From positions 50,716,001 through 50,780,000 of the forward strand of contig NC_043001.1 of NCBI RefSeq assembly GCF_006345805.1: a DNA stretch of 64,000 nt, given 5' to 3'. Made by a program: the position numbers and the translations under genes. The notes beneath the pieces are model-generated. The model did not search any database and had not been told where the DNA came from. It saw only the letters and a program-made list of their open reading frames with translations. The stretch comes from Octopus sinensis. Lineage: Eukaryota. This document shows positions 8,358-64,000 of this stretch, piece by piece; within the stretch, counting starts at the first letter, position 1; every line of letters begins with the position of its first letter.

Positions 8358-9579
<1,222 letters not shown>

Positions 9580-44476: not shown

Positions 44477-44706
44477 GGTGGCGAGCTGGCAGAAACATTA
44501 GCACGCCGGGCAAAATGCGTTGCCGTATTTCGTCTGCCGTTACATTCTGAGTTCAAATTCCACCGAGGTCAACTTTGCCTTTCATCCTTCCGGGGTCGAT
44601 AAATTAAGTACCAGTTACGCACTGGGGTCGATGTAATCAACTTAATCCGTTTGTCTGTCCTTGTTTGTCTCCTCTGTGTTTAGCCCCTTGTGGGTAGTAA
44701 AGAAAT
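44477..44706 (+). mobile_element. SINE family B, full length
   Basis: Head ggtggcgagctggcagaa; Nin/Deu-like cctttcatccttccggggtcgataaattaagtacc. Confidence 0.9.
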
Positions 44707-46026
44707 GTATATATGCAGACTTGAACATGAAACCATGCGAGTTGTTGGTTGTTTATATACATGAGGCTGCAGGTAAGTAATACAAAAACACCATTCCAAT
44801 TTTAAATGAGATTTTATTTATGCCACACAAGTCATGAATTTGGTCATAAATTACAAAAGTCTTCATATAAGGAATACCCTGTAACATGCATAGTGAGCAG
44901 GATACCAAATGCTAGTTCTGGAGCTGGATTAAATACAGGAATATATATATGCAGTGCTTAATTTCTGCTATCATATAACACATGTCAGGGTGAGCATGCA
45001 GTTGTTAGAATAATAATGTAAGCAATGAAAGAGTGTGTGAATTGGACTAAAACTTAGCACACACACACACACACACACTGGAGCTTGGCATTTAAAACAG
45101 GCTCTGTTTATAAGCTTATTACTGAGAATAATCTAGAAGGGTCTGGGAAAAAAAGCCTGTCATGTGAAGACCAGCAGCTGAATGGCTGATAACTCAGCCT
45201 CACACATAAACAGGGTTGAGTGATGATATGGCTTAAAGTCCATAATGTTCAAGTCTCATTACAGACATGAGCTTACAAAATGATAACATACATTTTCTAA
45301 AGGTTTTCAAGGGACTACTGGTTTAGTTTATGCAAAAACAGTGCCTTTACAACACATCTGACACATTCTGTGTAAAAGCTACAAATGTACCTAAGTATTA
45401 GTATTCACATTCACTGCAAAAGTTTTGTACCATATATATATATATATATACACACACACATACATATATATATGGTACAGAATAAGAAGAAATACGAAGA
45501 TAAGGTAAAAAAAAACAAATAGAGTGTATTAGGATGATGCTTATGAAAACTGAAGGAAATTCTTAATGTTTTGAGCCTATGCTCTTCTACAGAAAGGGTA
45601 GATGAAAAGACAGAAAAATAAAGAGAAAAAAGTTTCAATTAGATGGTCATCGAATGCTGAAATGACAGGAAGAGGAAGAAGTTGGCAAGGGTGATATCAG
45701 TAACCTGGCATATATGCGTGTGTGAGCAAGCAGGTGTGCTTATATAAAGCTAGTGTGTGCCTGTGTACATGTATAGGGCATGTGTCATGTGTGTATATAT
45801 GAAGCAATATGTATGTGTATACTCTCTATATTTGTTTATGTGTGTGTGCATGCATGTGCGTGTCTGTGTGCATGTGTATGTTTGTATATATACTTACATA
45901 AATACACACATACACTCATATATATTTATACCTACCTACCTACCTACCTTTATATATACATATATAAGAGAGAGAGAGTGAACAAACAAAACATGTATTT
46001 ATGTATTCATCGATCATGTATGTATA

Positions 46027-46666
46027 TCATTATTCAGTTTTATTTCAAGATTTCTAGCCAATAGAAAAAAATGCCGGTTTCTAACCTAAATGCAAGGCTC
46101 CTTCATTGGAATTTCAACATTAACAACAGGTTATTTTTGTATGTGTCTATGTATACATGCAAGCCTGTAAGTTTTTTCCTATGTATGTCTTCTCATACAA
46201 ATACTTGCATATCTAGACATGATCATATATACTTAAATGATAAACTTCTGGAAAGTTTTACAGATTTTTACAGTTCCAGTGATAGCTTAGACATGTAATC
46301 TTCAAATGAGCTTTCTCCTTCCTGGTTTTGAGAAGCCTAATTTCTCAAGATTGGTACTTAGGCAGTGTGTTACATATCCCAAGGTCCCAATAATTACAGG
46401 TATAAAACTGAACTTGTAGTCTAGGTAGAGTTACTGTGGATTTCTCAATAGTTTAGCGTAGGTATTCTCTTTTTCACTAATATTCAGCTTTATATTAACA
46501 TCCACTGGGCAGCTGATTTCCACTATTGTACACAGTTTCTCTTCTCTATTCCCGATCAATATATCAGGTCTATTGTGGTTACATTTTACTGAGGTTTTCT
46601 CTGGGATGTTCCACCAATACTCCTTTTCATTATGAGTGGCTGACTTCCCCCATACTGTAGGTTCTT
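46027..46666 (-). mobile_element. RLE-type (R2-group) LINE 3' end inserted in (TATG)n
   Basis: Minus translation EYWWNIP..KCNHNRPDIL..IVEISCPVD..KENTYAKL..FIPVIIGTLG; tatg repeats on both sides. Confidence 0.85.
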
Positions 46667-46711
46667 ATGTATGTATGTATGTATGTATGTATGTATGTAT
46701 GTATGTATGTA

Positions 46712-46937
46712 TCTTTTCTATTTTTTAATTATTATAAATCTTCCACTGAGGAGGGAGCTGGTTTCCAACATAGATACAAGGCTCCATCTTTGGGATGTAG
46801 TTAACACAAACAAATTCACATTTGGAACTTGAAAAGTCTTGCATATTTTCACTGTTCCACTCACAGATTACACTTGTAATGTATGAATTAGGTGATCGAT
46901 TTCTCTTTCTGAAAATCTCAGTTTATCCAGATTCTCT
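46712..46937 (-). mobile_element. Second subfamily of the same RLE LINE, short 3' fragment in (TATG)n
   Basis: ENLDKLRFSEREIDHLIHTLQV*SVSGTVKICKTF; shared UTR motif gg.ttc.aac.taga..caaggctc. Confidence 0.75.
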
Positions 46938-46980
46938 TGTATGTATGTATGTATGTATGTATGTATGTATGTATGTATGT

Positions 46981-47021
<41 letters not shown>

Positions 47022-47032
47022 GTGTGTGTGTG

Positions 47033-49065
47033 TGTTCACAGACAACAATGCTACACTGTTGACATATAGCTGCTATTACAACGTAGATAAATTCAAAGAA
47101 TATTTACAAAGCGAAAATTCTTAGAAAGCAGTCTCTACCAGCACTCAGTACGAAACCAATAAAGTAAGTAAAAGTAGTGTTTTGATTCGAGGAAACTTCG
47201 TGGCAATCCGCCACTCAAATACTTTGTTTTTATTTATACATTTGTCCCTCGACCTAAATATTTCTTCCGACTCACAATATTTATTTAAAACCATCTCTGA
47301 CTAGCAGAAAAGCAAATTGCTACTGAGAAATCGAAAACGAAACTTACAATCAGTTCGTCATTCAAAGCTCAAATAGGCGCTGGTACCGTTTTGTTTCCTG
47401 TAAGATACAGTATATTACTTTAGGCTTCGTTGTTCATTTCACAAGAATTATCGTAACTTAAAATACAATAATAATTCGCCGTATCGCAGTTCACCTATCG
47501 TGCCCTCTGTACATCGCGAATATGTAAATTAAATCGCGAACTCTTCAGTATATCAAGGGTTTCTGCGACCGATAGGTATTTATATTTTTTCAGATTTTAA
47601 TTATTTCTGTGATAAAATTTTCACGCTCAAAAATGAATAACTTAATTAATAAATATACAGTACTGTACTGTATAACACATTAATTAAAGTATATTAAAAG
47701 AAAATATGTAGTTACCGTAGATGCGTATGTATGTATGTATGTATGTATGTATGTATGTATGCATGCATGCATTTATGTATGTATGTATGTATGTATGTAT
47801 GTATGTGTGTATGTATGTATGTATGTATGTATGTATGTGTGTATCGTGTACACACATATTGACTTTACTTAACGTAGTTTCAATTAAAGTCGAATCTATT
47901 CGTTATAACGACTATATGAAATGGTATAAAAACCAAAATCAAATAGTTCGTAAAATATGTCTGTCAAAATTACTTTTTGGTTTCACTTTACTTTCTTTCT
48001 GTTGTAACTCGTTTCGTTGTCATTTCACTAAAGTATAAAGAACTCGACAAACAATAATGGGTAACTAAACTAGTCCGTCCATTTTCTTTTATTTCATGAA
48101 TGTTATCTAAGAGACAATCATCACAGTCTACTTGACAGAGATTCAATTACAGTAATCCCTCGACTATCGCGGGAGTTGCGTCCCCCACCCCGCGAGAGGT
48201 GAAAATTCGCGAAGTAGAGACAGTAGAGTACTGTATATATATTTGTAGCCTAGGTCGTCACAACATTTTTTTTTTAATAATTTGTAGATATTTATTTTAT
48301 TATACATGCAAAACAACACCACACACTCACCTCCCGAGTTTTCCATTACAGTATGTGCGATTCTTTGTTTACGCATCTACGGTAACTACATATTTTCTTT
48401 TAATATACTTTAATTAATGTGTTATACAGTACAGTACTGTATATTTATTAATTAAGTTATTCATTTTTAAGCGTGAAAATTTTATCACAGAAATAATTAA
48501 AATCTGAAAAAATATAAATACCTATCGGTCGCAGAAACCCTTGATATACTGAAGAGTTCGCGATTTAAATTTACATATTCGCGATGTACAGAGGGCACGA
48601 TAGGTGAACTGCGATACGGCGAATTATTATTGTATTTTAAGTTACGATAATTCTTGTGAAATGAACAACGAAGCCTAAAGTAATATACTGTATCTTACAG
48701 GAAACAAAACGGTACCAGCGCCTATTTGAGCTTTGTATGACGAACTGATTGTAAGTTTCGTTTTCGATTTCTCAGTAGCAATTTGCTTTTCTGCTAGTCA
48801 GAGATGGTTTTAAATAAATATTGTGAGTCGGAAGAAATATTTAGGTCGAGGGACAAATGTATAAATAAAAACAAAGTATTTGAGTGGCGGATTGCCACGA
48901 AGTTTCCTCGAATCAAAGCACTACTTTTACTTACTTTATTGGTTTCGTACTGAGTGCTGGTAGAGACTGCTTTCTAAGAATTTTCGCTTTGTAAATATTC
49001 TTTGAATTTATCTACGTTGTAATAGCAGCTATATGTCAACAGTGTAGCATTGTTGTCTGTGAACA
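47033..49065. repeat. Long near-perfect inverted repeat (arms about 695 bp, spacer about 640 bp)
   Basis: 47033-47727 is the reverse complement of 48370-49065; about four differences found by eye. Confidence 0.95.
48150..48240 (+). mobile_element. pogo/Tigger-like terminal sequence
   Basis: TA-cagtaatccctcgactatcgcggg with cgcga subterminal repeats. Confidence 0.6.
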
Positions 49066-49750
49066 TACACACACACACACACACACACACATACACACAC
49101 TAAACATTAGAAACAAAGCATTACGTATATTCAACGATGAACAGCGAGCAGAATATATTGGAAGAGTTGTTATGTAAGCATATACGAGCAATTCGTAGTG
49201 ATGCCGAAAAAAAACGCAAATTAAATCTTATTAACAAGTGTAAAACGTTCTAACTGCTACAAAATTAAGAATAAAACGCATATAATGAAAAATGTAGAAA
49301 GATTTTAATAGAAGACATGCATTAGCATAATTATCCAATATTTGCTTCATACCATTCAAATTCAAGTGTTAGATATTCGATGGCGTAAAGAAAACATAGG
49401 CTTCTTATGCTAAAAGTAAAAATTCTGTAGTAAAATGTTATGTTGGCTGAAATGTTTCAAGAATCGTTCAAAATTGCACCATTCCTGAGGAACAGATGAG
49501 TCTGTAATCACTGACACAGATTTTACAGCTGACACAAAAAAAATATTGATGACGGAGAAATATTCATTGCAACAAAATTTTAATGTAGCTGACAAGGACT
49601 TTTTTAATGGAAACGGGTGCGAAAAGAAAATTGTATTTCTGAAAAAAGAAATATCAGCATTTGTTTTCGTGATTGTGAAAGTTCATATAACTTGTAGCGT
49701 ACACACTAGTGAAATTCCTCTCCTCTTTATTATGTATACATACATTCTAA

Positions 49751-50900
49751 CGTAGCAGATAACAGCTAACCTTTGGCCGCTATTTAGACCCCGTTGTGCC
49801 CACAACTCTGATTGGTTGGCATTGGCGCAATTTGTCTGTTACTCTGTCGCGCCGATATACAGCGTATAACCAATCGGACACCTAAATAGAATCGAGACAG
49901 CCTTTTCTCAGCCCCGTTGAGCCTATTGTTCATTATAAAATCCCAGCTACTCCTCATCTCGAGGTTTTTGGTTCCAGACCTTCTAAGGTCTAGCTACTGA
50001 CCACACAAGACACAACCAGTTCCAGCGATAACGCCAGACGCCCAGGTTTTAACACAGCACTGTTCGTGAATTACTTCACCCTGGATCAACAGCAACGATA
50101 TAACCTGCGAGCCAGACGACAACACCCATCCAACAGCATTATGGCAATCTCTTTCTTCGTCGCTACCATCTTCTTTTTAACAACGCCAACAACATCTCTA
50201 CGTACACAGCTCAACCAGCAACACTGCACAGGTTCTAACATAGCACTGTTCGTGAATTACTTCACCGTGGTTAACAGCGAATATACAACCTGCGAGAACT
50301 CCTGTACAAGTAAACCAGGTAGCAGCATTACAGAAGCTACAGGCTGGCCGTCATTCTGAAGACACCAATGATTATGAAAAGATACTCTAAAATTCATTTT
50401 TCTCGTTACATGGTGATCGCATAAATAGGAGTAAATCACTAAAAAATATTCTGACATTAACTTCCTTCTTATCTCAGCCCAACTGTCAAGGAATATTGTC
50501 AGGTTAAGAACCTTAAAAATAGAGCCTTAAATCTTGTGGAAAACGTCTCATGTCGCATATCTAACTTGAATGAATTGACAGATAATATTCAAGTAGGTTT
50601 TCTGCTGCCATACAACCAGTTTGACTCAATCTATGGATCAGGCAACTGTTACTACAATGACAGCTACTGTTCACAGCACACTTTTAAGCATTTGTTTAAG
50701 TTCTAAGCTGACGGTAAAAAAATTTTGGTATGTTACCTGAATGCAAGTAACAATTTGACAGCGGCATAGCGGCAAGTGAAAATAACCAAAATTCATCTTG
50801 TCTGGAGTAAAGTCTATCTAAACACCATTACAAACTTCCTGGATAAAGAAGAACCAATACTAAATGTTCGTCAGGAGATTGTTGAGAGGGCTCACTTTGT
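49751..50900 (+). mobile_element. Old LTR-element relic: LTR-like 49751-50409, PBS-like tggtga, degenerate gag-like sequence
   Basis: CCAAT motifs, tataaaa at 49935, end ...gttaca followed by tggtgatcg; internal direct repeat at 50051 and 50237. Confidence 0.5.
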
Positions 50901-53689
50901 TGGATTTAGTAAAATAAATTAAGATGGAGTGGAATTACTTGAGTCTCATGGGGACAAAAATCTAATGAGGACTCACAGAGATGGAAAAATCATCGTCTTG
51001 AAGATGATAAAAGCGTACGTGTGGAACCACCATAAAATTTTAACAGCTACATATTTGTCCGAGGCTTTCCAGTTTTTAAATAAGGTTATGGCTAATTTCA
51101 TAAGAGAGAGAGAGAGAGAGTTTGAAAGCAAACAGGCTAATCATAAGTGAATGCAAATACTACCGGGAATTATAAGAGCTGATGGACGAGAAATTATACA
51201 CGACAAGAAATCTTGGTTGTGTTATAATTGGTTTTTACTAATCTCTCTTAAATGTTTTTATAAACATCCTTGTATTTCAATCGTTAATACTAGAATTATT
51301 TGGTGATTTTATTTTGAGATTTGTTGATGGTTTTCTAAGAACATATAGGGATATACCGTAACTGTGCTTATACCATTGAACCTATGTCGCTTGACTTAAA
51401 GTCACACGGACCTATCAACGAAGGTACATAAGGATTATTTGAATGTGCGTGTGTCTGTGTTAAAAGAATTTGGGTTCATTGTCGTTGTATTACCAGTATC
51501 TCAGCAGTTGTTCTTTTACATGTAAACTTAAATTTTAATATAAAACAAACCACATAGAAAGCAAAATGAAAAGCCCGTTTATTATTAACTGAAACTCTAC
51601 CCACAACTGTTAAGATTGTCAGCAATATTGATATAAAAATTTTCAAGCAAAAAATATTTGCGAGAGTTTCAAGTTACAACAAAGCAAGGGGGGGATTAGT
51701 AGATTTTTCTGAACGGATTAAGTTTGTATCAATAGTTGTCGTCACTAATTTCATGTGAGGGCTCTGTGACAGCGTGTATAAAGAAAGTCAGAAGGCAAAG
51801 TATATGTAGCATTAAAATTTAACAAGTACTAGCAAGAAGCAATAAGAATGATTTTTTAGCTTGTTTATCAATGTTAATCAGTTGGTGTAGCGTGACGTGA
51901 AGAAATCCGCACGACCTACGTTCCTTTGGGTGGTTTATATGTCGCAGAATGAAAACAGATATAAATGAAATGAGTTGCGTGGCGTTGGTAATGTACACTG
52001 TAATAGTCACATATCAGAAAGGGTGATATTGCCACTAGGGTCGCCAATGCTGCAAACTGATTTAGCTATTTGAAAAAGGCGCGTATACTGCTGGGTGGAA
52101 GTTGCTACCTGTATCCTTCAGCAGCCAGTTCTTATTGGATGAAATGGCCATAGTACGACTGTGCTATGTCACCTCGACAAAATAGCTCTTTTCTATCTCG
52201 CTACAAGTTTGCTCCCAAGCCTGAAGCAACTCTAGCTGCTGGAACACAAAAAACCCACAATAGGTAATCTGATTTAATCCTCCGTTCAGTCTTAATGGAA
52301 AGTCGGGTGTTACCAAAAGCTTCTAAATGTGACTCGGAAAAATTTCTCTAAAGGTCATAAATATTTGAAATTATTCAAACGCCATAACTTAAAAACTGGC
52401 TATAGCTGTATTATTATGGGGAAGATCATCAATGATAGTTGAGAACAGTACCCTTAAACTACATAACAAGTCATCCAAAGACTATGTGAACAGGCAGCAT
52501 TGTACCAATCAACACTGCAAAACTACAACTTTCATAATATGGAGTTATGCTCCTTAGCTATTTTATGCAATATATCAATAATCTACCAAGCTATCCTTTC
52601 TCATCTTGGTGACAAATAAACCATTTAAATCCTATATTGGGATATATGGGAGCAAATTCATGCGCCAGTATTTAAATTATAAGTGCATCTTTCAACACGT
52701 AGACAAAATAAAAGCTACAACATATTCAAGTTATATATGGTATTTGATGGATAATATTCGTAATTTTTAATAACATTTTCAGTTCCCTTCCCTAAATTCT
52801 GCCAGTTCTGAAATGATGAAAAAATTCTAATATTATCTTGCAAATTCTCATCAAATCTTTTAAATGTTCAAAAAGATCATGAAAATAATTCATTCAACAA
52901 AATCTCACGAAAGATATTGGATCAGGCTTTTCAGTACAAAAGTACAAAAAAAGTGACCAGTAATGAAGAACAATGTAGAAAACATGCGCATGAGGGTACT
53001 ACGTGCATAAGGATACTTTTGTGCATGCGCAAATGCATGCTGATTTATATGCAAGCTTCTGTGCATGTACATATACACGCACATGTATACTCGAGTATGC
53101 ATATGTATATATGTGCGCGCGCGTGTGCATCCAGTGTTTATAAAATGATATTAAATGACTGACAATGCTACAAATTTGGTGGTAAGGTGGCATTTTAACT
53201 GAAATCAAATTACATTGAATAATTGCTGATTTGTTGTTAATTAGTCCCGAGTGAACTCTATTCAATCAAACTTATGATAAGTGTTCCAGTCATGACCAAC
53301 CTGTCTTCTTATATATCGTGGATTACATCGTCTAACGTATTCATTTTCTTATCACGATGCTAGATAGTAATTTGAAGAAGATTTGGCTGCTATTCCTTGT
53401 ATATTAATCTACCACAAAATGGCTTATTGACTGCGCAAGTTGAGAACCCTGAACATAAACAGACGCTACCAGATGGTATATATATACCATCCATCACTCT
53501 ATTTTAAAAAATTACGTAAGTTTTGCATAAATGTGCTATGTTCATAGGTTGGAGCAATATGGAGCAATATTCTCTGCACTGAATATGATTTGGGGAAATT
53601 TAGCTGCAAAAGATGGTGGAGGTGTAGGGAGTAACAGGTTGTGCACCCCAGACCAAATGGCGTATTCAACCACATCTCACGGACATAAC

Positions 53690-54300
53690 TGCAAAGTTGC
53701 CATGCAGAATGGCCAGCGACGTTCGTTACAACATTCGCCCCACCTCATGAGGCTCATTTCTCACACGGGGCGCTGTTATCCTGATTTTTATGTAGCAAAT
53801 CAGCAGCGCAGGGTCCGAGAACACTTGAATTCTCGACGGCGATCGAAACGAACAGACAAGCGATCATTCAGGCTCCCGTATTTGTTTAACTTTCACTCCT
53901 CTGTGTTATGAGCGGCGATATCCGGGTTTGCTGGAGACGGAGAATGTGACGTAGGACGTCATGTCCCAGATTAGGGATTTGCCTCGTTCGCATGGGAGAA
54001 GGATCATTTCATCGGGGCGCTTACCAGTCCCCACGGTCAAAACCTACTGGCTCCAGTTGTTACGGGAAGACAGCCGTCTCACAGCCCCTTCTTATTATGT
54101 TGTTCAGAGCGGCGTGTCGAACTGACCCGCACTATGAATGCAGGATAATGGATGAAGGTCGAACTCATCAACTACAGTTCCGTTCGTGAAGCCTACTTGC
54201 ATAGAGACAGAGGCGCTGGGGCACTTCGATACAAATGTACTCAACATCAGGTTGATGGGGTTGCGAAGCGGAACAGAGGCAGGTAGGGCGGTGCTGAGCT
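53690..54300 (-). mobile_element. CRE-clade non-LTR retrotransposon 3' relic (RLE domain)
   Basis: Frameshifted minus translation HPLSCIHSAG..RHAALNNIIRR..LEPVG..GKRPD..GKSLIWDMT..KLNKY..IAVENSSVLGP..AILHGN. Confidence 0.8.
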
Positions 54301-54736
54301 AAGGATGTCACAATCTTCCTCTTTTTCTTTGTGGTGGTGAGGTCTTGATAAGTTGATCTTTTATAATCTTAATGATTTTTTTCTTTTCTTCTTGTAAAAA
54401 CTGTAAAAAAAAATTGTGATTAAAAAAGAAATAAAAAAGACTGTTATTCTGTTCTTTCCAGAGAGTGGATCCTTATTGTGTCAGCATGTGATAGATTTAG
54501 TTTTAAATATTTGCAACTTCATTGTATTACAGTTAGGTATCAAGAAAGTGGTTCCGCCTACATATGTCATTTGTGAATAAACAAATGCATGTCCTGGAGG
54601 TTTGGTAAAGTAAAACGTTATAAATAATGTTTACGGGAAATTTAAGTCTTCTCACATAATTGTGTCCGGATTAAATGACATAGTGAAGCATTAGTTCGCA
54701 GAAAATCGGTAATGTATATATATATAAAATAAATAA

Positions 54737-54971
54737 ATGTTCCTTCTCGAGCCATGCCAGTTTCATTCTCGGTTTCATTGGCGTACAAATTCACCACCTG
54801 GACGGGACACCGGTCCGTCGCAGGATTACTCATTTTTGCCAAGCTGAGTGGACTGCAGCAACGTGAAATGAAATGTTTTGTTCAAAAACACAACGCATCG
54901 CCCGGTCCAGGAATCGAAACCACAACCTTACGATCATGAGTTCAACACCATAACCACTAAGCCACGCGCCT

Positions 54972-54975
<4 letters not shown>
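54737..54975 (-). mobile_element. tRNA-derived SINE (family C variant)
   Basis: Head gtggaggcgcgtggcttagtggtta...gtttcgattcc; V-like cctgcgacggaccggtgtcccgtccagg. Confidence 0.85.
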
Positions 54976-55017
<42 letters not shown>

Positions 55018-56136
55018 ACACACACACACACATATGTATGTATGTATATATATATGTATATGTGTGTGTATAATAGTATATATATACATGTATATATGTA
55101 TACACACATATACATAAATACAAATGTGCGTGTGTGTGTGCATATGTATATGCAGATGCGCGCATGTGTTGCATTGTTTAGTTGAGAGCTGTATTATTTG
55201 GTTTGGCTGCGTGCTGCTTCCATGCAAAACCCATGCAAAATATCTAGATTTGAGTAAGATGTTTATTTACAGATGAATGTTACAATAGTTAGTTTACATA
55301 AGCCATCGTACTGAATACCAATAACTAGTGCGCAAGAAGGGAAACTGCTCTGTTGGTGCTTACAGAGCCGGATCTACCACTAGGCAAACTAGGAGACCAC
55401 CTAGGGCGGCAAGCAAAATTTAGTTTCCCACGAGTGTTCCGGACCCTAGTTATGAACTCATTTGCTTACAGCCAGTCATAGCTCAACTATCAAACTAGTG
55501 TCCACCTGGTCACGAAAATACCCTGGTTCAGTTCAGTGGAAAATGTGCGTTATAGCAAAATCTAACTGTGCTAAACGGGTTAATAGGAGTGACAAATGTG
55601 AAATTTAGAGTATAAAGTGAATGGAGAGTTGCTCACCGATGATGCCATAAGTGTTGCCAATTTGCGTAATTTACCAAATGAGTCTAGTTTCCTAATTTTT
55701 TGACTAATTCTGTACATTCCTAATTTAAAATGTTGGTGTTCCTGGAAACATAGTAATCAATATGGTGTTGTGTCGTATTGCGCCCTCCTAGCATATATTA
55801 ATGGGTACATGCAGTATTGCTAATGTCAGTCTGCACATAGGTACCTAACGTTAGCTCCATAGAAGATGGTGCTCAATCGATCTATGAGGATGGTGGAGGG
55901 GTGATGTGCTTATGTGAGACCTGCTAAACTGTACTCTCAGAGTGACATACACCATTCTATGTCTAACTGGCTTCACTGTAGTAGTACACAGTATGTGGAT
56001 TTTCAAGGTGAGCTCTGATTGGCTGTATGTAAATGAGTCCATTACTGAGGTCCGGAACTCTAGTGGGAAATAAATTTCGCGGGCGGCAACATCTAGGGGG
56101 CGACAAAATCTGGGATGTCTTGGGAGGCACTGATTC

Positions 56137-56179
<43 letters not shown>

Positions 56180-56406
56180 TTATAATTTTAAATTGATAAT
56201 TTTGATATTATAATAAAAAAATTCACTTATCAAATCATCAGCAATTAGTAAGTAAAGTTTGACAAAAAATTTCAGTTACACTTACACTTCCGAAATCTAA
56301 TGTTCCTTCTAAGGTTTCAGCCCGCGGCGCAGCCCAGTCGTTTGAAAATTACCACCCGGTTTAATACGAGGTCCCTTAGGAAACAATTGAATTTTAAAAT
56401 TTAACA

Positions 56407-56600
56407 TCTATTATATAAAATCCGTTCTGTCTGTGTGTGTGTGTGTGTCTTCTAGGATCTCAGGCATCCTCCATCCGATTGCGCTCAAATTTGATATGTA
56501 GATACCTACGGTATCAGGGCGTGTATAAGTCTTGAAAAAAATTACAAAAATCGATTCCAGGTGAGAATGCGATCGATAAAGTGAATAAAATCGTCTTTCT
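56407..56600 (+). mobile_element. Possible Helitron-type 5' end
   Basis: a|TCtattatataaaa followed by ctgt/gt microsatellite and ccgattgcgctcaaattt; no clear 3' hairpin-CTRR end found. Confidence 0.4.
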
Positions 56601-57432
56601 TTAGAATAGAAAAAAAGTCTATCTTTATTTCTTCTTTTGTTGGTGTCTCAAATTTAGATTAAATCAGTGTTTCTCAAAGGGGAGGCCTATGGGACGGTCG
56701 GACAAGTTGTTTTGAGAAAATGTGGTTTAAATGTTTGACAACTCAGCACCGTCCATTGGACGGGGGGCGTTTTGCTTGTATGTGTATATTTTTACAATCG
56801 TTCTTAAAATATTCAAAAGAATGTGTAATATACTTAACAGTTGTAATAAATTGTATAATAGCGAGTTGACTACCCCTATATGATATATATATATATTAGT
56901 AATGTGTCAATGTCTCGGCAAAGAAATAAAAGCTAGCATCGATTAGGCATCGGCAAAATTTTTAAATCATGGTTTTGGTATGTGTACACAGCAGTTTTTT
57001 TTTTGGTGGGGGGTGGGTAGAATTTTTTCTTGCCAATTAAATCACGGGAGGGACAGAAAGGTTTTTGAAAAGAAGTTTGATTATATGATTCACTTCTTTC
57101 AAAAGGTTTTTCAATATCAACTTCCGGTATGGACGCAGCAATAGAGAATTGTTTGTTTTCATTTGCAAGATTTCTCACGTTCTCTTTGAATGTTTTCATT
57201 TCAAGTTTTAATTCACTCATACATACATACATACATACATGCATACATACATACATACATACACACATATACATACATATGTATATATAGATGTATATGT
57301 ATAGATGTATATATATACATGTATATATATATATAGATTTATATGTATCCTTCTTTCCTGAGCGTCCAATAATACTATATTTGTTCCACGTCCTCGCGTT
57401 GTTGTGTTTTTTTGTTTAATTGTTGGATTAAC

Positions 57433-57483
<51 letters not shown>

Positions 57484-57518
57484 GTTCTTGTCCATGTTGT
57501 ATTTTTCTACATACCTTA

Positions 57519-57550
<32 letters not shown>

Positions 57551-57687
57551 TATATATGGTTGTATATATATGTATAGATATATGTATGCATGTATATATG
57601 TATGTATATAAATGTATACATACAGATGTATATGTATAGATGTATATATATAGATTTATATGCATAGATGTATATGTATAGATATAT

Positions 57688-58056
57688 ACTCTTTTACTCT
57701 TTTACTTGTTTCAGTCATTTGACTGCGGCCATGCTGGAGCACCGCCTTTAATCGAGCAACTCGACCCCGAGACTTATTCTTTGTAAGCCTAGTACTTATT
57801 CTATCGGTTTTTTTTGCCGAACCGCTAAGTGACGGGGACATAAACACCAGCATCGGTTGTCAAGCAATGCTAGGGGGACAAACACAAACGTACACGCACA
57901 CACACATATACATATATATACATATATACGACGGGCTTCTTTCAGTTTCCGTCTACCAAATCCACTCACAAGGCTTTGGTCGGCCCGAGGCTATAGTAGA
58001 AGACACTTGCCCAAGATGCCACGCAGTGGGACTGAACCTGGTACTATGTGGTTGGT
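57688..58056 (-). mobile_element. SINE family A (young, head truncated)
   Basis: Homology to 15930-16349. Confidence 0.9.
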
Positions 58057-58223
58057 AGTGTATATATATATATATTATATATATATATATATTATATATA
58101 TATATATAATATATAGTGTGTGTGTGTGTACATATATATGTTGTATACATATGCAAATATATATATATATATGTATGTATATATACATATATATATATGT
58201 GTGTGTGTGTGTGTATATATATA

Positions 58224-58273
<50 letters not shown>

Positions 58274-58546
58274 TATATATATATATATATGTATATATTA
58301 CATGAATATTCATACAGACATACATTTGTCACCCTTCATTATTACGGATAACCATATTTTATCTCAGTAGATGACTACAGCATCTGTTTTGGCTACACGC
58401 GGGGGGAAGGGGCTGGTGACACAATCTTTCCATTCACACATTGAATTTGGTGATACTAGTTGCGATTCTAGCTCGCTCTCATACTGAGTTGAGTTGGTGC
58501 CTTAAGTATCTCAAAATTCAATATATATCATTTATGATTATAGTAT

Positions 58547-58646
58547 TCTACGCTGAAGAGAAAAGAAGTTTTTGGTAAGATAGATTATTTAATATTTAAT
58601 TCTTATGCTTTCCTAAAAACTTGATTTCGAAACGTACGTCCGTAGA
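58547..58646 (+). ncRNA. Type I hammerhead ribozyme, apparently intact
   Basis: Stem I tctacg/cgtaga, core CTGAAGA, stem II gaaa..aagttttt/aaaaactt..tttc, GAAA, stem III C-gtac-G, GTC cleavage triplet at 58638-58640. Confidence 0.85.
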
Positions 58647-59467
58647 TAACTTAAAATGTATGATAGATTGCCGTCAATTCATTCTCTCTTACCTGTTTGT
58701 GTCTGCCTTCCAATTGCTGTTTTTACTGAGATCTCCCTTTTTAGTAGAAGAAATAGCTATAACTCTTTGACTGCTATTTCTAAATTCGGTATGTGGTAAG
58801 GCAATTCGTTGCTAAACCCTTTATTGCTTAGTATACATAGAAACATATATTTATATGCTTTTTAGTTTCTCCTACCAAATCCACTCAAAAGGCTTTGATT
58901 GGCTCGAGGCTATAATAGAGGACATACTCAAGGTGCCACGCAACAGGACTAATCTGTCTTGCCAACCGGTCAGTTAAGATTTTTTCATACATATGAGCAG
59001 CCGTGGCACCCGGACGTGTTTTTCAATGCTCTGTTTAGTAAGTAGTTGAAGAAACAGACACCATATCAAATCAAACATCTCTAAATTTTAATTCCTAAGT
59101 CTTACGAAAGCTGCGATAAGAAATCAACAGAAGATTAATTTTGAACCCCATACTGCCTGCGATAATCTGTGGAAAAAGAAATGATTTCTCGTGAGTACAA
59201 TATAAATTTCTCCTGTTATTCTATTCAATATATATACGATTTTATTAAATTCATAGCTCATTCAGAATTTACGAATATACTTTTGACTTCATACTCATAT
59301 ATCTCTGTTGAAAACGCTCTCTTTAAACTAACAGCCACATATACAAAACTATACGTATCAACTATCACAGAATTTTACAAAACTCAAGCACCCTTCACTT
59401 TCGAATTACAAAGTTCCTCATCAAAGCATACACATATCATATACATATTTTATCTTCAAGCATACTA

Positions 59468-59823
59468 TTTTACTCTTTTACTTGTTTCAGTCATTTGACT
59501 TTAGTCGAGCAAATCTACCCCAGAGCTTATTCTTTATAAGCCTAGTACTTATTCTATCGTTTTCTTTTGCCGAACCGCTAATGTACGGGACGTAAACACA
59601 CCAGCATCGGTTGTCAAGCACAGACACACAAACATATACACACACATACATATATATATATGACAGGTTTCTTTCAGTTTCCGTATACCAAATGCACTCA
59701 CAAGGCTTTGGTCGGCCCGAGGCTATAATAGAAGATACTTGCCCAAGGTGCCACGCAGTGGGACTGAACCCGGAACCATGTGGTTCGTAAGCAAGCTACT
59801 TACCACACAGCCACTCATACGCC
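59468..59823 (-). mobile_element. SINE family A
   Basis: Homology to the other copies. Confidence 0.9.
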
Positions 59824-60311
59824 TCTGTAAATATTCATAAAACAAGTACAATCTACACTAATTTCTGTTTCAACACAACTAAAAACTAACGTAAGGAGTA
59901 AATCAATAATTAACAAATATATTAAAAAACAAAAAAGATAAAAAACTGTAAGATGACTACTTAGCAACAAAAATCTAAACAAAGTTGGTCTGAGAATGAA
60001 ATAGACCTTCTGATAAATTCATGGTACTGTCTTGCCCAAACGGAAAACAGACACATTATGCTGCGACCAAATAGCCAGACGTACAATTCAACTTTTCAGA
60101 AATCGCTCCGAGAAGCAGATTCAAAACAAATGTAAACAAATTGAAATGGTATTTAAATCGATTAACAGACATTTTGAAAAACTCCAACGTATTTTCTCTT
60201 CGAATACTGGTCAACCACCACCACTACCACCACGGCAACAACAACAAGAAGAACAACCACGGCAACAACAACAACCATCACAGCAACAACAACGACCACC
60301 GTAGCAGAAAC

Positions 60312-60641
60312 AACACTACGTCATATGCCCGTGGGCATATGGCGTAGTGGTTAAGAGCGCGGGCTACTAACCCCAAGATTCCGAGTTCGATTCCAAGCAG
60401 TGACCTGAACAACAACAACAACAATAATAATAATAATAATAATAATAATATAATAATAATAATAAAATAATAATAACAACAACAACAACAACAACATCGA
60501 ATAATACCTTAGGAATGAGAAACCAGGATCGAAATTTTCCCAAGATACCTGAAGAAGGCTGGAGGGTATATCAGCCGAAATGTTGCGTTAACAACAAACA
60601 AGATGAGGACAAATATCGAATGTAAATAATGTAAATAATGT
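60312..60641 (+). mobile_element. SINE family D, most complete copy, with a 5' hairpin
   Basis: tRNA head 60333-60394 (A box tggcgtagtgg, B box gagttcgattcc), (AAC/AAT)n, HHR motif 60544-60589; 60314-60330 is the inverse of the head start. Confidence 0.9.
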
Positions 60642-60934
60642 TCTTAGATTCCAGCTGTTCACAGCCCATTCAACCAGAGTTTGTTACCAACCATCAAATC
60701 TTCAACAGCAGTAACAATTTCATCAACTACAAATAGCAATAAACAGCATCTAAGGAATTATAATCCCCTTTCCATTTTAATTTCTTTAAGAATAACTTCT
60801 GACATTTATTTCACCCCTACATACTTCTATAAATAGAAAATTTCTTTTGTCTCCATTCAACGGAATATCCCTCCCCACTTTCTTGCCGTTCAAAATAACT
60901 TAGAGAATATTCTTCAGCCAGAAGATAAATTCTA

Positions 60935-61167
60935 ATACCTATTTCTTTACTACCCACAAGGGGCTAAACACAGAGGGGACAAACAAGGACAGACAAAGGG
61001 ATTAAGTCGATTAAATCGACCCCAGTGCTTAACTGGTACTTAATTTATCGACCCCGAAAGGATGAAAGGCAAAGTCAACCTCGGCGGAATTTGAACTCAG
61101 AACGTAACGGCAGACGAAATACGGCTACGCATTTCGCCCGGCGTGCTAACGGTTCTGCCAGCTCGCT
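60935..61167 (-). mobile_element. SINE family B
   Basis: Reverse complement of 44477-44706. Confidence 0.9.
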
Positions 61168-61272
61168 TATCCTTCAAATCAACATCTCTGTCTGTCTATA
61201 TATCTACCCTCTTTATTATGTTATCAACTAACATGAAAATAAGTATATGTATTGATGGAAAACCTCTATAAA

Positions 61273-61356
61273 TGGCTGATGACTGCTCAACATTTTAAAA
61301 CTGTTGTAATACTTACAATGTTTAATAAAATGATGTAACGTGAAACGATCGTACCA
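61273..61356 (+). ncRNA. Type I hammerhead motif with intact core and weak stems
   Basis: tgg-CTGATGA, long hairpin catttta..ttgtaa/ttacaa..taaaatg, GAAA-CGATCG-TA-cca. Confidence 0.65.
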
Positions 61357-61399
61357 AATTACCGAAGATATTCTTGTTGCTTATTTTGATTATATATAT

Positions 61400-61460
<61 letters not shown>

Positions 61461-62459
61461 CATATACAGGGTTCATATTCATATAAATATGAATATGAAA
61501 CGGCCCCGTGCAGCTGTTAAGCAATATTCAAATACATAGTAATTAATAAGAGGAATCTTACAAAATGCTTTATGATGATAAACTTTGCAACTTCAAGCTG
61601 ATGTGAAGTGCAGAAACGTACGTCGTGATCTATCAGTAAAGCTTGTTGATTTCTATCCTCGTGTTGTATTATTATTTTATACAAACATACATATATACAT
61701 AAGTACACCCACCCACACATACACACACACACATTACATATACTGGATTATCAAATACAATGCTTGTTATTGAATGTAGAGGTTGCAGACAAATATAATT
61801 AGAATACTTAAACAAGAGGTCAATGACATAATGTGACACATCGCTAAATAATATTTAATAATATCGTACTGTTTAGCAGTCCACTACTTCAAACTGAAAA
61901 CGAAATCTAACTGTAATGCGAAATTAATTATCCTATTGAGATTGCGCTCCAACAGACTTTCAGGAAAACAAAACAAAACGGAGTATAGACAACATGATCA
62001 CCTTTATACATGAAGGTAACTATTTCTAAATACACAACACAAAGTTCTGGCAGGAATGTGAAGTTTCACCAACATTGTATACTTGCTCTGGTGTGTAGCC
62101 CCCTTCAGCAATCACTTTCTTCGATTGCTCAGTATAATTAGTAGCAACCTCTGTATCAGCACTCGTCGATAAAGGCTGGTTTGAACATTAGAAGTTTAAC
62201 CATTTTTCTTCGACAAATTGTTACATAAACTGGTTTTTTTAATTTGATTTTGAATTACTATCGTATCTATGGCCACAGGAGGAATTTCAACCGTGTTGCG
62301 TGGTCTGCTACCACTACAGCTTATAGGATCCAGCTTATAGGATCAGGAGGAACCACGTCCGGTTTCGGCCCCTACTCCTCTACCGTTTTGACGTGGCGCC
62401 CCCCCCCCACTTTCGGAGGTGTCTTATTTCAAATGGATTTTCATATCTTCTTCATACTA

Positions 62460-63647
62460 CGAGGTGGTATCAAAAAGTTCCTGGAATATTTATGTTTAAT
62501 TTAAAAAAAACTTATTTACTTAAATTTTAACAGAATTTCCTTCAAAATAGTCACCTTGCGCAGCAATATACCGGTCCCAACGTTCCTGTCACTTTTGGAA
62601 TCCGGCCTGGAAGTCGTTTTCCGTAAGAAAGTCGAGGACCTACAATTCACTCTGGATCTCGACAATGGTGTTAAAACGGTGACCTTGAGCTGTATTTTCA
62701 TCTTGGAGGAGAGATGGAAGTATACAGGTGCTAAATCTGGAGAATAGTGCAGGTACGGAAGCCCTACTATGTTGATATGGGCGAAAAACTCACGAGTGAG
62801 GAGAGCTTGGTGACAGGGTGCACTGTTGTCGAGAAGAATCCAGTTCTTCGCGCTCCACAGATCCAGTCGCATTCGCCGAATGTCCTCCTTCAGGCGCTTC
62901 AAAACGTTGCAGTAGAACTCTCGATGAACGGTCTGACCTTGGGTAATGAATTATCGATGCACAATACCACATTTCCGTGGGTGACGCTCGTGGCAGGTCT
63001 TCAAGATCGCTCATCGTCTTCCTGGGACGTTCTTCAGGTCTTGAAGTGCCCATGCAACTTGAAATATTGCGTGCCGAAGAATGCTTAATGTTTCTGTAGC
63101 AGACTTCTCAAGTTTAACGCAAAATCTCGCGTTGGCTCTTTGTTACAACTTCCTGTCCATGACAATATCGCAGACTACAGCATACATCACCGTGATCACC
63201 GTGACCGACCAGGCTATCAGATGTTGCTACACGTCGCTGGTCACAATGCGCTTCGCATCGTTTTAGCCTTTAAATAATGCCACCCCGCTGGCTAAGCGAG
63301 CATGCCAACAGAAGAGTGAGAGAAAGTTGTGGTGAAAGAGTACAGCAGGGGTCGTCACCACCCCACTGCCGGAGCCTCGCGGAGCTTTAGGTGTTTTCGC
63401 TCAATAAACACTCACAACGCCCGGTCTGGGAATCGAAACCGCGAGTCCGCTGCCCTAACCACTGGGCCATTGCACCTCCACAGAGCATACACTTGATCAC
63501 AAAAACACAAATTTTACAACTTGCGAAGTAAACATAGCGATATCACTAGGGCACACTGCCTGATAAAGGTCACTGCTCACGCAACCCTGTGCTGCCATCT
63601 GTTGTTGCGCTACAGAACTAGTCAGGGTGTTTTTTGATACCACCTCG
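62460..63647 (-). mobile_element. mariner relic, internally deleted, with a nested SINE at about 63285-63482
   Basis: TA-flanked TIRs cgaggtggtatcaaaaa / tttttgataccacctcg; WILLDNSAPCH, HYSPDLAPVYFHL. Confidence 0.9.
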
Positions 63648-63846
63648 TATATATCCTTGTTGGTGGTGGTGGTCGTGTTGCTATAAACACACACACACAC
63701 CGTTGGTAAAGATACTGTTATCATGGCCATTGTCATTAATGGAAGCGCTGCCATTGCTGTTACAGATGTCATTGGCGATGGCTCTGCTGCTATTTCCGTT
63801 AGGGATACAGCCGATACGGTCGTTGCTGCTGTTATTGGAACTGTGT

Positions 63847-63877
<31 letters not shown>

Positions 63878-63914
63878 TTATACATGAATAAATAACATAA
63901 AATAAATGCGCCCT

Positions 63915-64000
63915 TTTAAAGCCTAGGCCGGCTCATGGGCCCGGTTTCCCGGTTTCTATGGCGTATGTGTTCCCCAGCTGGACGGGACGCCAGTCCATCA
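63915..64000 (-). mobile_element. SINE family C tail, running off the window
   Basis: ggcccggtttcccggtttc...ctggacgggacgccagtccatc. Confidence 0.75.

What the first reader, a model, noticed from the sequence alone, without database searches (positions are those of the whole stretch)
58547..58646. Apparently intact stand-alone type I hammerhead ribozyme
Seen: all canonical core nucleotides (CUGAAGA, GAAA, GUC), a perfect 6-bp stem I (UCUACG/CGUAGA), a long stem II closed by G-C with a nested hairpin (uaaga/ucuua), and a short stem III with palindromic GUAC loop. No PLE ORF was recognised nearby. Inference: a young retrozyme or PLE end, or a retained functional ribozyme able to cut any + strand transcript after 58640.
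Basis: partly seen in the sequence, partly recalled or inferred. Interest (0 to 1): 0.75.

Follow-up and report, generated by a model that had tools for sequence, protein, structure and literature searches.

The report
Hammerhead inside a Penelope-mobilised repeat
The hammerhead motif is real but not stand-alone: it sits in one truncated copy of a young 593-base non-coding repeat with hundreds of copies, which is likely pasted into TA microsatellites by a Penelope-type retrotransposon enzyme, so it is a new member of a known class, the animal retrozymes.

Summary
The motif is confirmed: a complete type I hammerhead at 58547-58646. It is the only descriptor hit in the window, and 0 of 200 shuffles gave one. 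Stems I and II covary across sister families. It is not solitary. Window 58329-58834 is a 5'-truncated copy of a 593-bp repeat with at least 794 hammerhead-bearing units, median 0.9% from the family majority. Copies form head-to-tail and mirror-image arrays in (TA)n. They end at two fixed sites about 110 nt apart; 22 of 28 two-armed insertions use one of each, the Penelope 'tail' footprint. Copies rarely start at the cleavage site (3, against 2 at a control site and 695 running through), so the template was probably a circle or an uncut multimer. Sister families (12,155 motif hits) keep the ribozyme with a stem II of 25-69 nt and a covarying 3' structure. Verdict: a metazoan non-LTR retrozyme. 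No autonomous partner was matched by sequence. Cleavage and circRNA are untested. This scan already reported this class several times in this genome.

The parts
58329..58834 (+). 5'-truncated single copy (unit positions u1-u512) of the 593-bp retrozyme repeat; lacks u513-u593; ends at preferred 3' site A
58547..58646 (+). type I hammerhead ribozyme motif
58547..58552 (+). stem I, 5' strand (pairs with 58641-58646)
   Evidence: 5 of 6 pairs change on both sides across 11 family representatives
58553..58559 (+). catalytic core CUGAAGA
   Evidence: C, G, A, G, A invariant in 11 of 11 representatives
58560..58628 (+). long stem II (69 nt here; 25-69 nt across sister families)
58629..58640 (+). GAAA, palindromic 2-bp stem III (ACGUACGU) and GUC triplet; predicted cleavage after 58640 (u317)
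58641..58646 (+). stem I, 3' strand
58749..58781 (+). predicted hairpin (AGAAATAGC/GCTATTTCT) just upstream of the 3' structure
   Evidence: fold; the right arm is conserved in sister families
58785..58834 (+). 5' half of a conserved 3' RNA structure: P1 5' strand 58785-58794 (its partner, u545-554, is absent from this copy), P2 58795-58818, then end site A at 58834
58061..58298 (.). (TA)n microsatellite 30 bases upstream of the copy, the family's usual target context
   Evidence: family context

Best explanation
This hammerhead motif lies inside one truncated copy of a young, protein-free 593-bp tandem repeat with at least 794 units in the genome, a non-LTR retrozyme that is likely copied into (TA)n microsatellites by the reverse transcriptase and GIY-YIG endonuclease of a Penelope-like element (PLE). 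Shown: the repeat, its arrays, its two fixed 3' ends about 110 nt apart, scattered 5' ends, mirror-image arms, and covarying ribozyme and 3' stems. Inferred: tandem arrays are transcribed on the + strand. The hammerhead would cut once per unit, probably helped by dimer pairing of the palindromic stem III. Monomers would be ligated into circles by a host ligase, as in mussel and axolotl retrozymes. A borrowed PLE enzyme would nick (TA)n on both strands and start reverse transcription at site A (u512) or site B (about u22-29 of the next unit), positioned by the conserved 3' structure. It would run across the ribozyme site one or more times on a circle or uncut multimer, and stop at random. This window copy has one ribozyme and lacks 81 nt of the unit, so it is likely a dead-end insertion that cannot release a monomer.
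For: Copy number: 794 exact hits to a 22-mer spanning the cleavage site, control 0; 84 matches among 40 scored of 1333 candidates, mostly 95-99% identical. Period 593 bp, with a subfamily near 600. In 48 of the 51 insertions covered by the first 100 listed hits, 28 are two-armed. Of these 28, 22 end at A on one arm and B on the other; 17 of 20 single-armed ones end at A; 67 of the 69 A or B ends lie in TA-rich flank. Frangieh et al. (PMC11167929, main text read) show that a PLE enzyme nicks both strands at AT-rich sites, starts RT at two internal sites that bound the 'tail', and does not need hammerhead cleavage. Craig et al. (PMC8557442, passages) describe inverted 5'-truncated copies, a tail at one end, and (TA)n targets. 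Hammerhead covariation across 11 hand-picked representatives: 7 of 12 pairs change on both sides, 90.9% of cells are paired against 19-44% for slid controls. 64 of 76 copies have an intact core with stems I and III. The + strand circle folds at z -5.6 against -3.3 for the - strand (40 shuffles each). Units of one insertion are closer to each other (0.55%, 120 pairs) than units of different insertions (1.59%, 4554 pairs). Intact, near-identical RT+GIY-YIG PLE ORFs with the CX2CxxC linker exist in the genome.
Against: No autonomous PLE sharing the repeat's 3' sequence was found in 80 partly overlapping PLE-centred stretches. The clear hits (L083/L100, L076/L101, L227) were sister retrozymes inserted beside or inside PLEs. 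The tail (about 110 nt) is longer than the 30-40 bp in the literature. The unit is longer than the 170-400 nt of PMC7229834. Stem III is barely populated as a monomer (0.04). Li et al. found cleavage in only 1 of 9 tested Xenopus retrozymes. The data do not separate circle from multimer: 10 of 133 insertion-private variants sit in only some units, and L015 is a mosaic. The representatives in the covariation counts are related and were hand-picked, so the shuffle counts are not probabilities.
Confidence: 0.85

Rival explanations
1. Same element and same borrowed PLE enzyme, but the template is an uncut linear multimer transcript. The hammerhead is a slow or protein-gated passenger and no circle is involved.
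For: In vitro, the anole PLE uses unprocessed RNA and its hammerhead needs protein (PMC11167929). Monomer stem III is weak. L015 carries unit-specific variants, one of them shared with five other insertions. L036 and L058 carry variants at mirror positions in only one unit per arm.
Against: For variants seen in three or more insertions, all covering units of an insertion agree in 151 of 164 cases, as expected from repeated copying of one unit, though a homogeneous source array gives the same. Core and stems are kept across sister families whose stem II and flanks differ widely, which implies selection on cleavage.
Confidence: 0.3
2. The copy is the pLTR-containing 3' end of an autonomous PLE whose full-length form was not found.
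For: It has the PLE insertion footprint. Li et al. link Xenopus retrozymes to pLTRs (bioRxiv 10.64898/2026.07.22.740005). Only the best candidates are scored in genome searches, so a rare master could be missed.
Against: Arrays of up to six units join unit to unit. No insertion mapped continued upstream into PLE coding sequence, and PLE-centred stretches did not carry the unit.
Confidence: 0.08
3. A host-domesticated solo ribozyme that cuts + strand transcripts at this locus.
For: The core is intact in this copy.
Against: The copy is one of hundreds, about 1% from its siblings, and most siblings are equally intact (64 of 76), so intactness reflects youth. No host exon was recognised among 18 window ORFs.
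Confidence: 0.03

Closest known systems
Metazoan non-LTR retrozymes (Cervera and de la Pena 2020, PMC7229834: abstract, passages, mussel results section and discussion read; Li, Clavereau and Pollet 2026, bioRxiv 10.64898/2026.07.22.740005: parts 1-3 of 5 read)
   Same: Non-coding, low-GC (0.346) tandem units, each with a type I hammerhead; 2-bp stem III with a tetraloop; monomers, dimers and multimers; PLEs in the same genome.
   Different: Unit of 593 bp (170-400 nt in the 2020 paper, inside the 51-972 bp range of the 2026 preprint). Stem II of 69 nt. Insertion ends mapped here show two fixed start sites and mirror arms, which the parts I read do not describe. No pLTR homologue found. Expression and cleavage untested.
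EN+ Penelope-like elements, Neptune-type (Craig et al. 2021, PMC8557442, passages; Frangieh et al. 2024, PMC11167929, main text)
   Same: Partial-tandem and inverted 5'-truncated insertions, a tail at one end, (TA)n targets, a type I hammerhead.
   Different: No RT or GIY-YIG ORF. Tail about 110 nt instead of 30-40 bp. The hammerhead is mid-unit, about 195 nt upstream of the first 3' end.
Amphibian satellite-2 / axolotl HHR_Amex1 and HHR_Amex2 hammerheads (PMC7229834, passage)
   Same: Weak stem III with a palindromic tetraloop that allows a dimer. The 543-559-bp sister family has a U-U mismatch at the base of stem II, as HHR_Amex2 does.
   Different: This family has a G-C closing pair and a very long stem II.

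Membership tests
Type I hammerhead ribozyme | Core CUGANGA / GAAA / NUH with three stems, stem I open | tested here: met
   covariation
Type I hammerhead ribozyme | Match to an Rfam hammerhead model | tested here: not met
   no hit at gathering score or at E<=10; the long stem II is my inferred reason
Type I hammerhead ribozyme | Self-cleavage after the NUH triplet | not testable with these tools
   needs a transcription assay
Metazoan non-LTR retrozyme | Tandem repeats with a type I hammerhead in each unit | tested here: met
   family arrays of up to 5-6 units per arm; the window copy itself is a partial monomer
Metazoan non-LTR retrozyme | Non-coding, GC below 45% | tested here: met
   GC 0.346; the only ORF of 100 aa or more touching the copy is a TA-repeat frame overlapping its first 23 bases
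Metazoan non-LTR retrozyme | Short monomer (170-400 nt in PMC7229834; 51-972 bp in the 2026 preprint) | tested here: inconclusive
   593 bp: outside the first range, inside the second
Metazoan non-LTR retrozyme | Expressed as linear and circular RNA | not testable with these tools
   only contigs were offered; a circle junction equals the tandem junction
Metazoan non-LTR retrozyme | Co-occurs with autonomous PLEs | tested here: met
   intact 781-aa and 784-aa RT+GIY-YIG ORFs
Metazoan non-LTR retrozyme | Sequence similarity to the pLTR of a resident PLE (24 of 57 Xenopus families matched a known TE) | tested here: inconclusive
   none in 80 PLE-centred stretches; the search was not exhaustive
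Autonomous EN+ Penelope-like element | ORF with RT and GIY-YIG endonuclease | tested here: not met
Autonomous EN+ Penelope-like element | Insertion footprint: 5' truncation, inverted arm, tail at one end, microsatellite target | tested here: met

The most novel reading that the evidence does not exclude
This repeat and its sisters form a retrozyme superfamily of over 12,000 units. A covarying multi-stem RNA structure that brackets the first of two RT start sites would be the cis-signal by which a Penelope enzyme recognises a circular RNA that shares no detectable sequence with it. Each mirror-image insertion would record two priming events 110 nt apart on one circle, and the hammerhead would tolerate a stem II from 25 to 69 nt.
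Probability: 0.35. Interest if true: 0.55.

Novelty: new member of a known kind. Interest (0 to 1): 0.3.

Why it matters
Which enzyme mobilises animal retrozymes, and whether the circle is the template, is still open in the papers read. This family supplies hundreds of young insertions with two mapped start sites, a covarying candidate recognition structure, and intact resident PLE enzymes to test against. It also shows that genomic hammerheads with a long stem II are missed by Rfam models. The single window copy is ordinary and probably inert as a mobile element.

Tried and rejected
1) A 'second, degenerate hammerhead' in the part of the unit missing from the window (u520-560) was my first idea (note). 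I dropped it: that stretch is better explained as the 3' strand of the long-range P1 helix plus a small hairpin, which covary in sister families. 2) Partner search: a GIY-YIG family search, a protein search and 80 fetched stretches gave no PLE sharing the unit's ends. 3) The pattern had too short a gap and was uninformative. 4) Expression: no RNA holder was listed on record. The 20 holders come from 8 studies and 4 organism labels and are contigs only. Four were laid: they cover 25-29 of 30 bins and two join unit end to unit start, which cannot tell a circle from a tandem, and contigs cannot show read ends at the cleavage site. 5) Whether the copy lies in a host intron stays open; the read-laying on window 44500-64000 gave no result. 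6) The 5'-end tally (2 of 76 within 6 nt of the cleavage site) is biased, because the insertions were chosen by a pattern spanning that site. I replaced it with the direct test. 7) Literature: 'hammerhead ribozyme'+'octopus', 'cephalopod'+'ribozyme'+'retrotransposon', the octopus/Penelope search and 'long stem II' (0 papers) listed no paper whose title or abstract describes a cephalopod retrozyme. I saw those as listings only. Supplements were not read; those of the 2026 preprint are closed, and those of PMC7229834 and PMC8557442 may list related motifs. 8) A sequence look-up and a 'near' look-up in earlier findings returned nothing.

Full report
OBSERVATION. My type I descriptor finds only this site in the window and nothing in 200 approximate dinucleotide shuffles. 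Stems I and II are predicted at 0.87-0.98 within the 506-nt copy and in a circular unit. Stem III is 0.04 as a monomer, the hammerhead-shaped fold costs 1.1 kcal/mol over the MFE, and the palindrome can pair between two molecules (duplex -11.2 kcal/mol). Rfam does not detect it.

IT IS A REPEAT. Searching the window's own genome (G000, 2.72 Gb) with 58320-58830 gave 1333 candidates; the 40 scored gave 84 matches, mostly 95-99% identical and often spaced 593 bp apart. A 22-mer across the cleavage site has 794 exact hits, control 0. A variant pattern adds 400 hits, partly this family and partly sisters. I number the unit from L027:2094-2686 (u1-u593). The window holds u1-u512, and cleavage is predicted after u317. 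The unit has GC 0.346. Of 76 distinct full hammerhead copies in the first 60 loci, 64 have an intact core with stems I and III. Median substitution distance from the family majority is 0.9% (162 segments), and the window copy differs at 3 positions. Contigs of four coded public runs under four organism labels cover 25-29 of 30 bins of the stretch. That the host is an octopus comes from an earlier scan note (e1-8806981) and my recall of its SINEs; I did not test it.

INSERTION ANATOMY. I mapped 48 of the 51 insertions behind the first 100 listed hits; the other three were mapped and left out of this tally. In one search, 28 are two-armed mirror structures with 5' ends meeting in the middle, and 20 are single-armed. 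3' ends fall at site A (about u512; 43 ends) or site B (about u14-33 of the next unit; 26 ends), with 7 elsewhere. 22 of 28 two-armed insertions have one A end and one B end, and 17 of 20 single arms end at A. 67 of the 69 A or B ends abut TA-rich sequence. This matches the PLE footprint in PMC8557442 (passages): an inverted 5'-truncated copy, a tail at one end, and (TA)n targets. It also matches the biochemistry in PMC11167929 (main text): both strands nicked, RT started at two internal sites that bound the tail. The tail here is about 110 nt rather than 30-40 bp.

THE RIBOZYME SITE IS NOT A BOUNDARY. 695 copies run through the cleavage site. Of 8 hits with other letters before it, 3 truly begin there after (TA)n and 5 are small deletions. 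A control position gave 2 hits, not inspected. So cleaved linear monomers were not the main template; a circle or an uncut multimer was. Units within an insertion are closer (0.55%, 120 pairs) than between insertions (1.59%, 4554 pairs), though subfamily structure inflates the second figure. In 71 insertions (L004 left out as complex), variants seen in three or more insertions were carried by all covering units in 151 of 164 cases. Insertion-private variants were in all units in 32, some units in 10, and one unit in 91 of 133 cases. L036 and L058 carry variants at mirror positions of both arms, so the two arms copy the same stretch of one molecule. L015 is a mosaic and fits a multimer template or later conversion. 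Circle versus multimer is therefore unresolved. I favour the circle by analogy with PMC7229834 (sections 14 and 17 read).

SISTER FAMILIES AND COVARIATION. A motif from the 3' region, written to exclude this family, has 12,155 hits, control 0, many in 543-559-bp tandem units with the same two-armed layout. These carry a hammerhead at the same place. Across families stem II is 25, 26, 31, 52, 53, 60 or 67-69 nt, and the stem III loop is GUAC, GUGC or GCGC, all self-complementary when G-U pairs are allowed. On 11 hand-picked representatives, 5 of 6 stem I pairs and 2 of 4 basal stem II pairs change on both sides; 90.9% of cells pair against 19-44% for slid controls. On 10 representatives of the 3' region, a long-range helix P1 (u463-472 with u545-554) and an inner helix P2 have 95.6% of cells paired and 4 of 18 pairs changing on both sides, against 29-42% paired when slid. 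That 201-nt region folds at z -3.6. Site A lies inside the loop closed by P1. I infer that this structure positions the enzyme; that is untested. The sequences are related, so these counts are support and not probabilities.

PARTNER. [quoted passage not shown] The 781-aa and 784-aa families also end in (TA)n. None of 80 partly overlapping PLE-centred stretches shared the unit's sequence in the PLE itself. The clear hits were sister retrozymes inserted in neighbouring TA tracts. The partner is therefore inferred from the footprint, not identified.

THIS COPY. It is single-armed, starts at u1, ends at site A, lies 30 bases after a (TA)n tract, has one ribozyme and lacks the 3' strand of P1. It is unlikely to make a circle or to move again. 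It could still cut a + strand read-through RNA. Whether such a transcript exists was not determined.

NOVELTY. It is a new member of the metazoan non-LTR retrozymes. My four searches listed no paper describing a cephalopod one, but the held library is partial and supplements were unread. Earlier notes of this scan reached the same reading for several families in this genome, including two fixed ends and a 600-bp unit that may be this family's subfamily. They are unchecked AI notes; I had reached the reading and the two-end pattern before opening them. Interest 0.3.

Noticed in passing
window 9484-9515 and 60549-60580 (+): Two short hammerhead-like motifs of another repeat family (core, 6-bp stem II, GAAA), each shortly after an (AAT)n tract; the second follows a tRNA-like head near 60330-60405 (my reading of the sequence, not run). 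Neither passed the full type I descriptor.
   Followed up: partly
L091:674-4374, L223:2405-6006, L099 (- strand): The autonomous Neptune-type PLEs have an upstream ORF overlapping the RT ORF. A UUUUUUA heptamer (UUUUUUU then A in L099) is kept at the overlap in three families, and the 784-aa family has no ATG near the start of the RT frame, suggesting -1 frameshifting. PMC8557442 Fig. 1 legend mentions a frameshifted ORF1 in some PLEs.
   Followed up: partly
L093:6823, L094:345 and 6756, L099 (- strand, 580), L091:78 and 6013: Further long-stem-II type I hammerhead motifs with palindromic or near-palindromic stem III, in other repeats of this genome.
   Followed up: no
L107-L136 (G000:C1): A much larger sister retrozyme family (543-559-bp units) with a GUU triplet and a U-U or A-A mismatch at the base of stem II; one subfamily (L135) has C in place of U4 in the core yet still forms arrays.
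   Followed up: partly
L083:2600-2880, L101:5440-5910, L227:570-770: Sister retrozymes inserted into TA tracts next to, or in the middle of, autonomous PLE copies.
   Followed up: partly
window 57695-58058 and 59460-59800: Two copies of a common SINE-like repeat flank the region; the name 'octopus SINE' is recalled, not tested.
   Followed up: no
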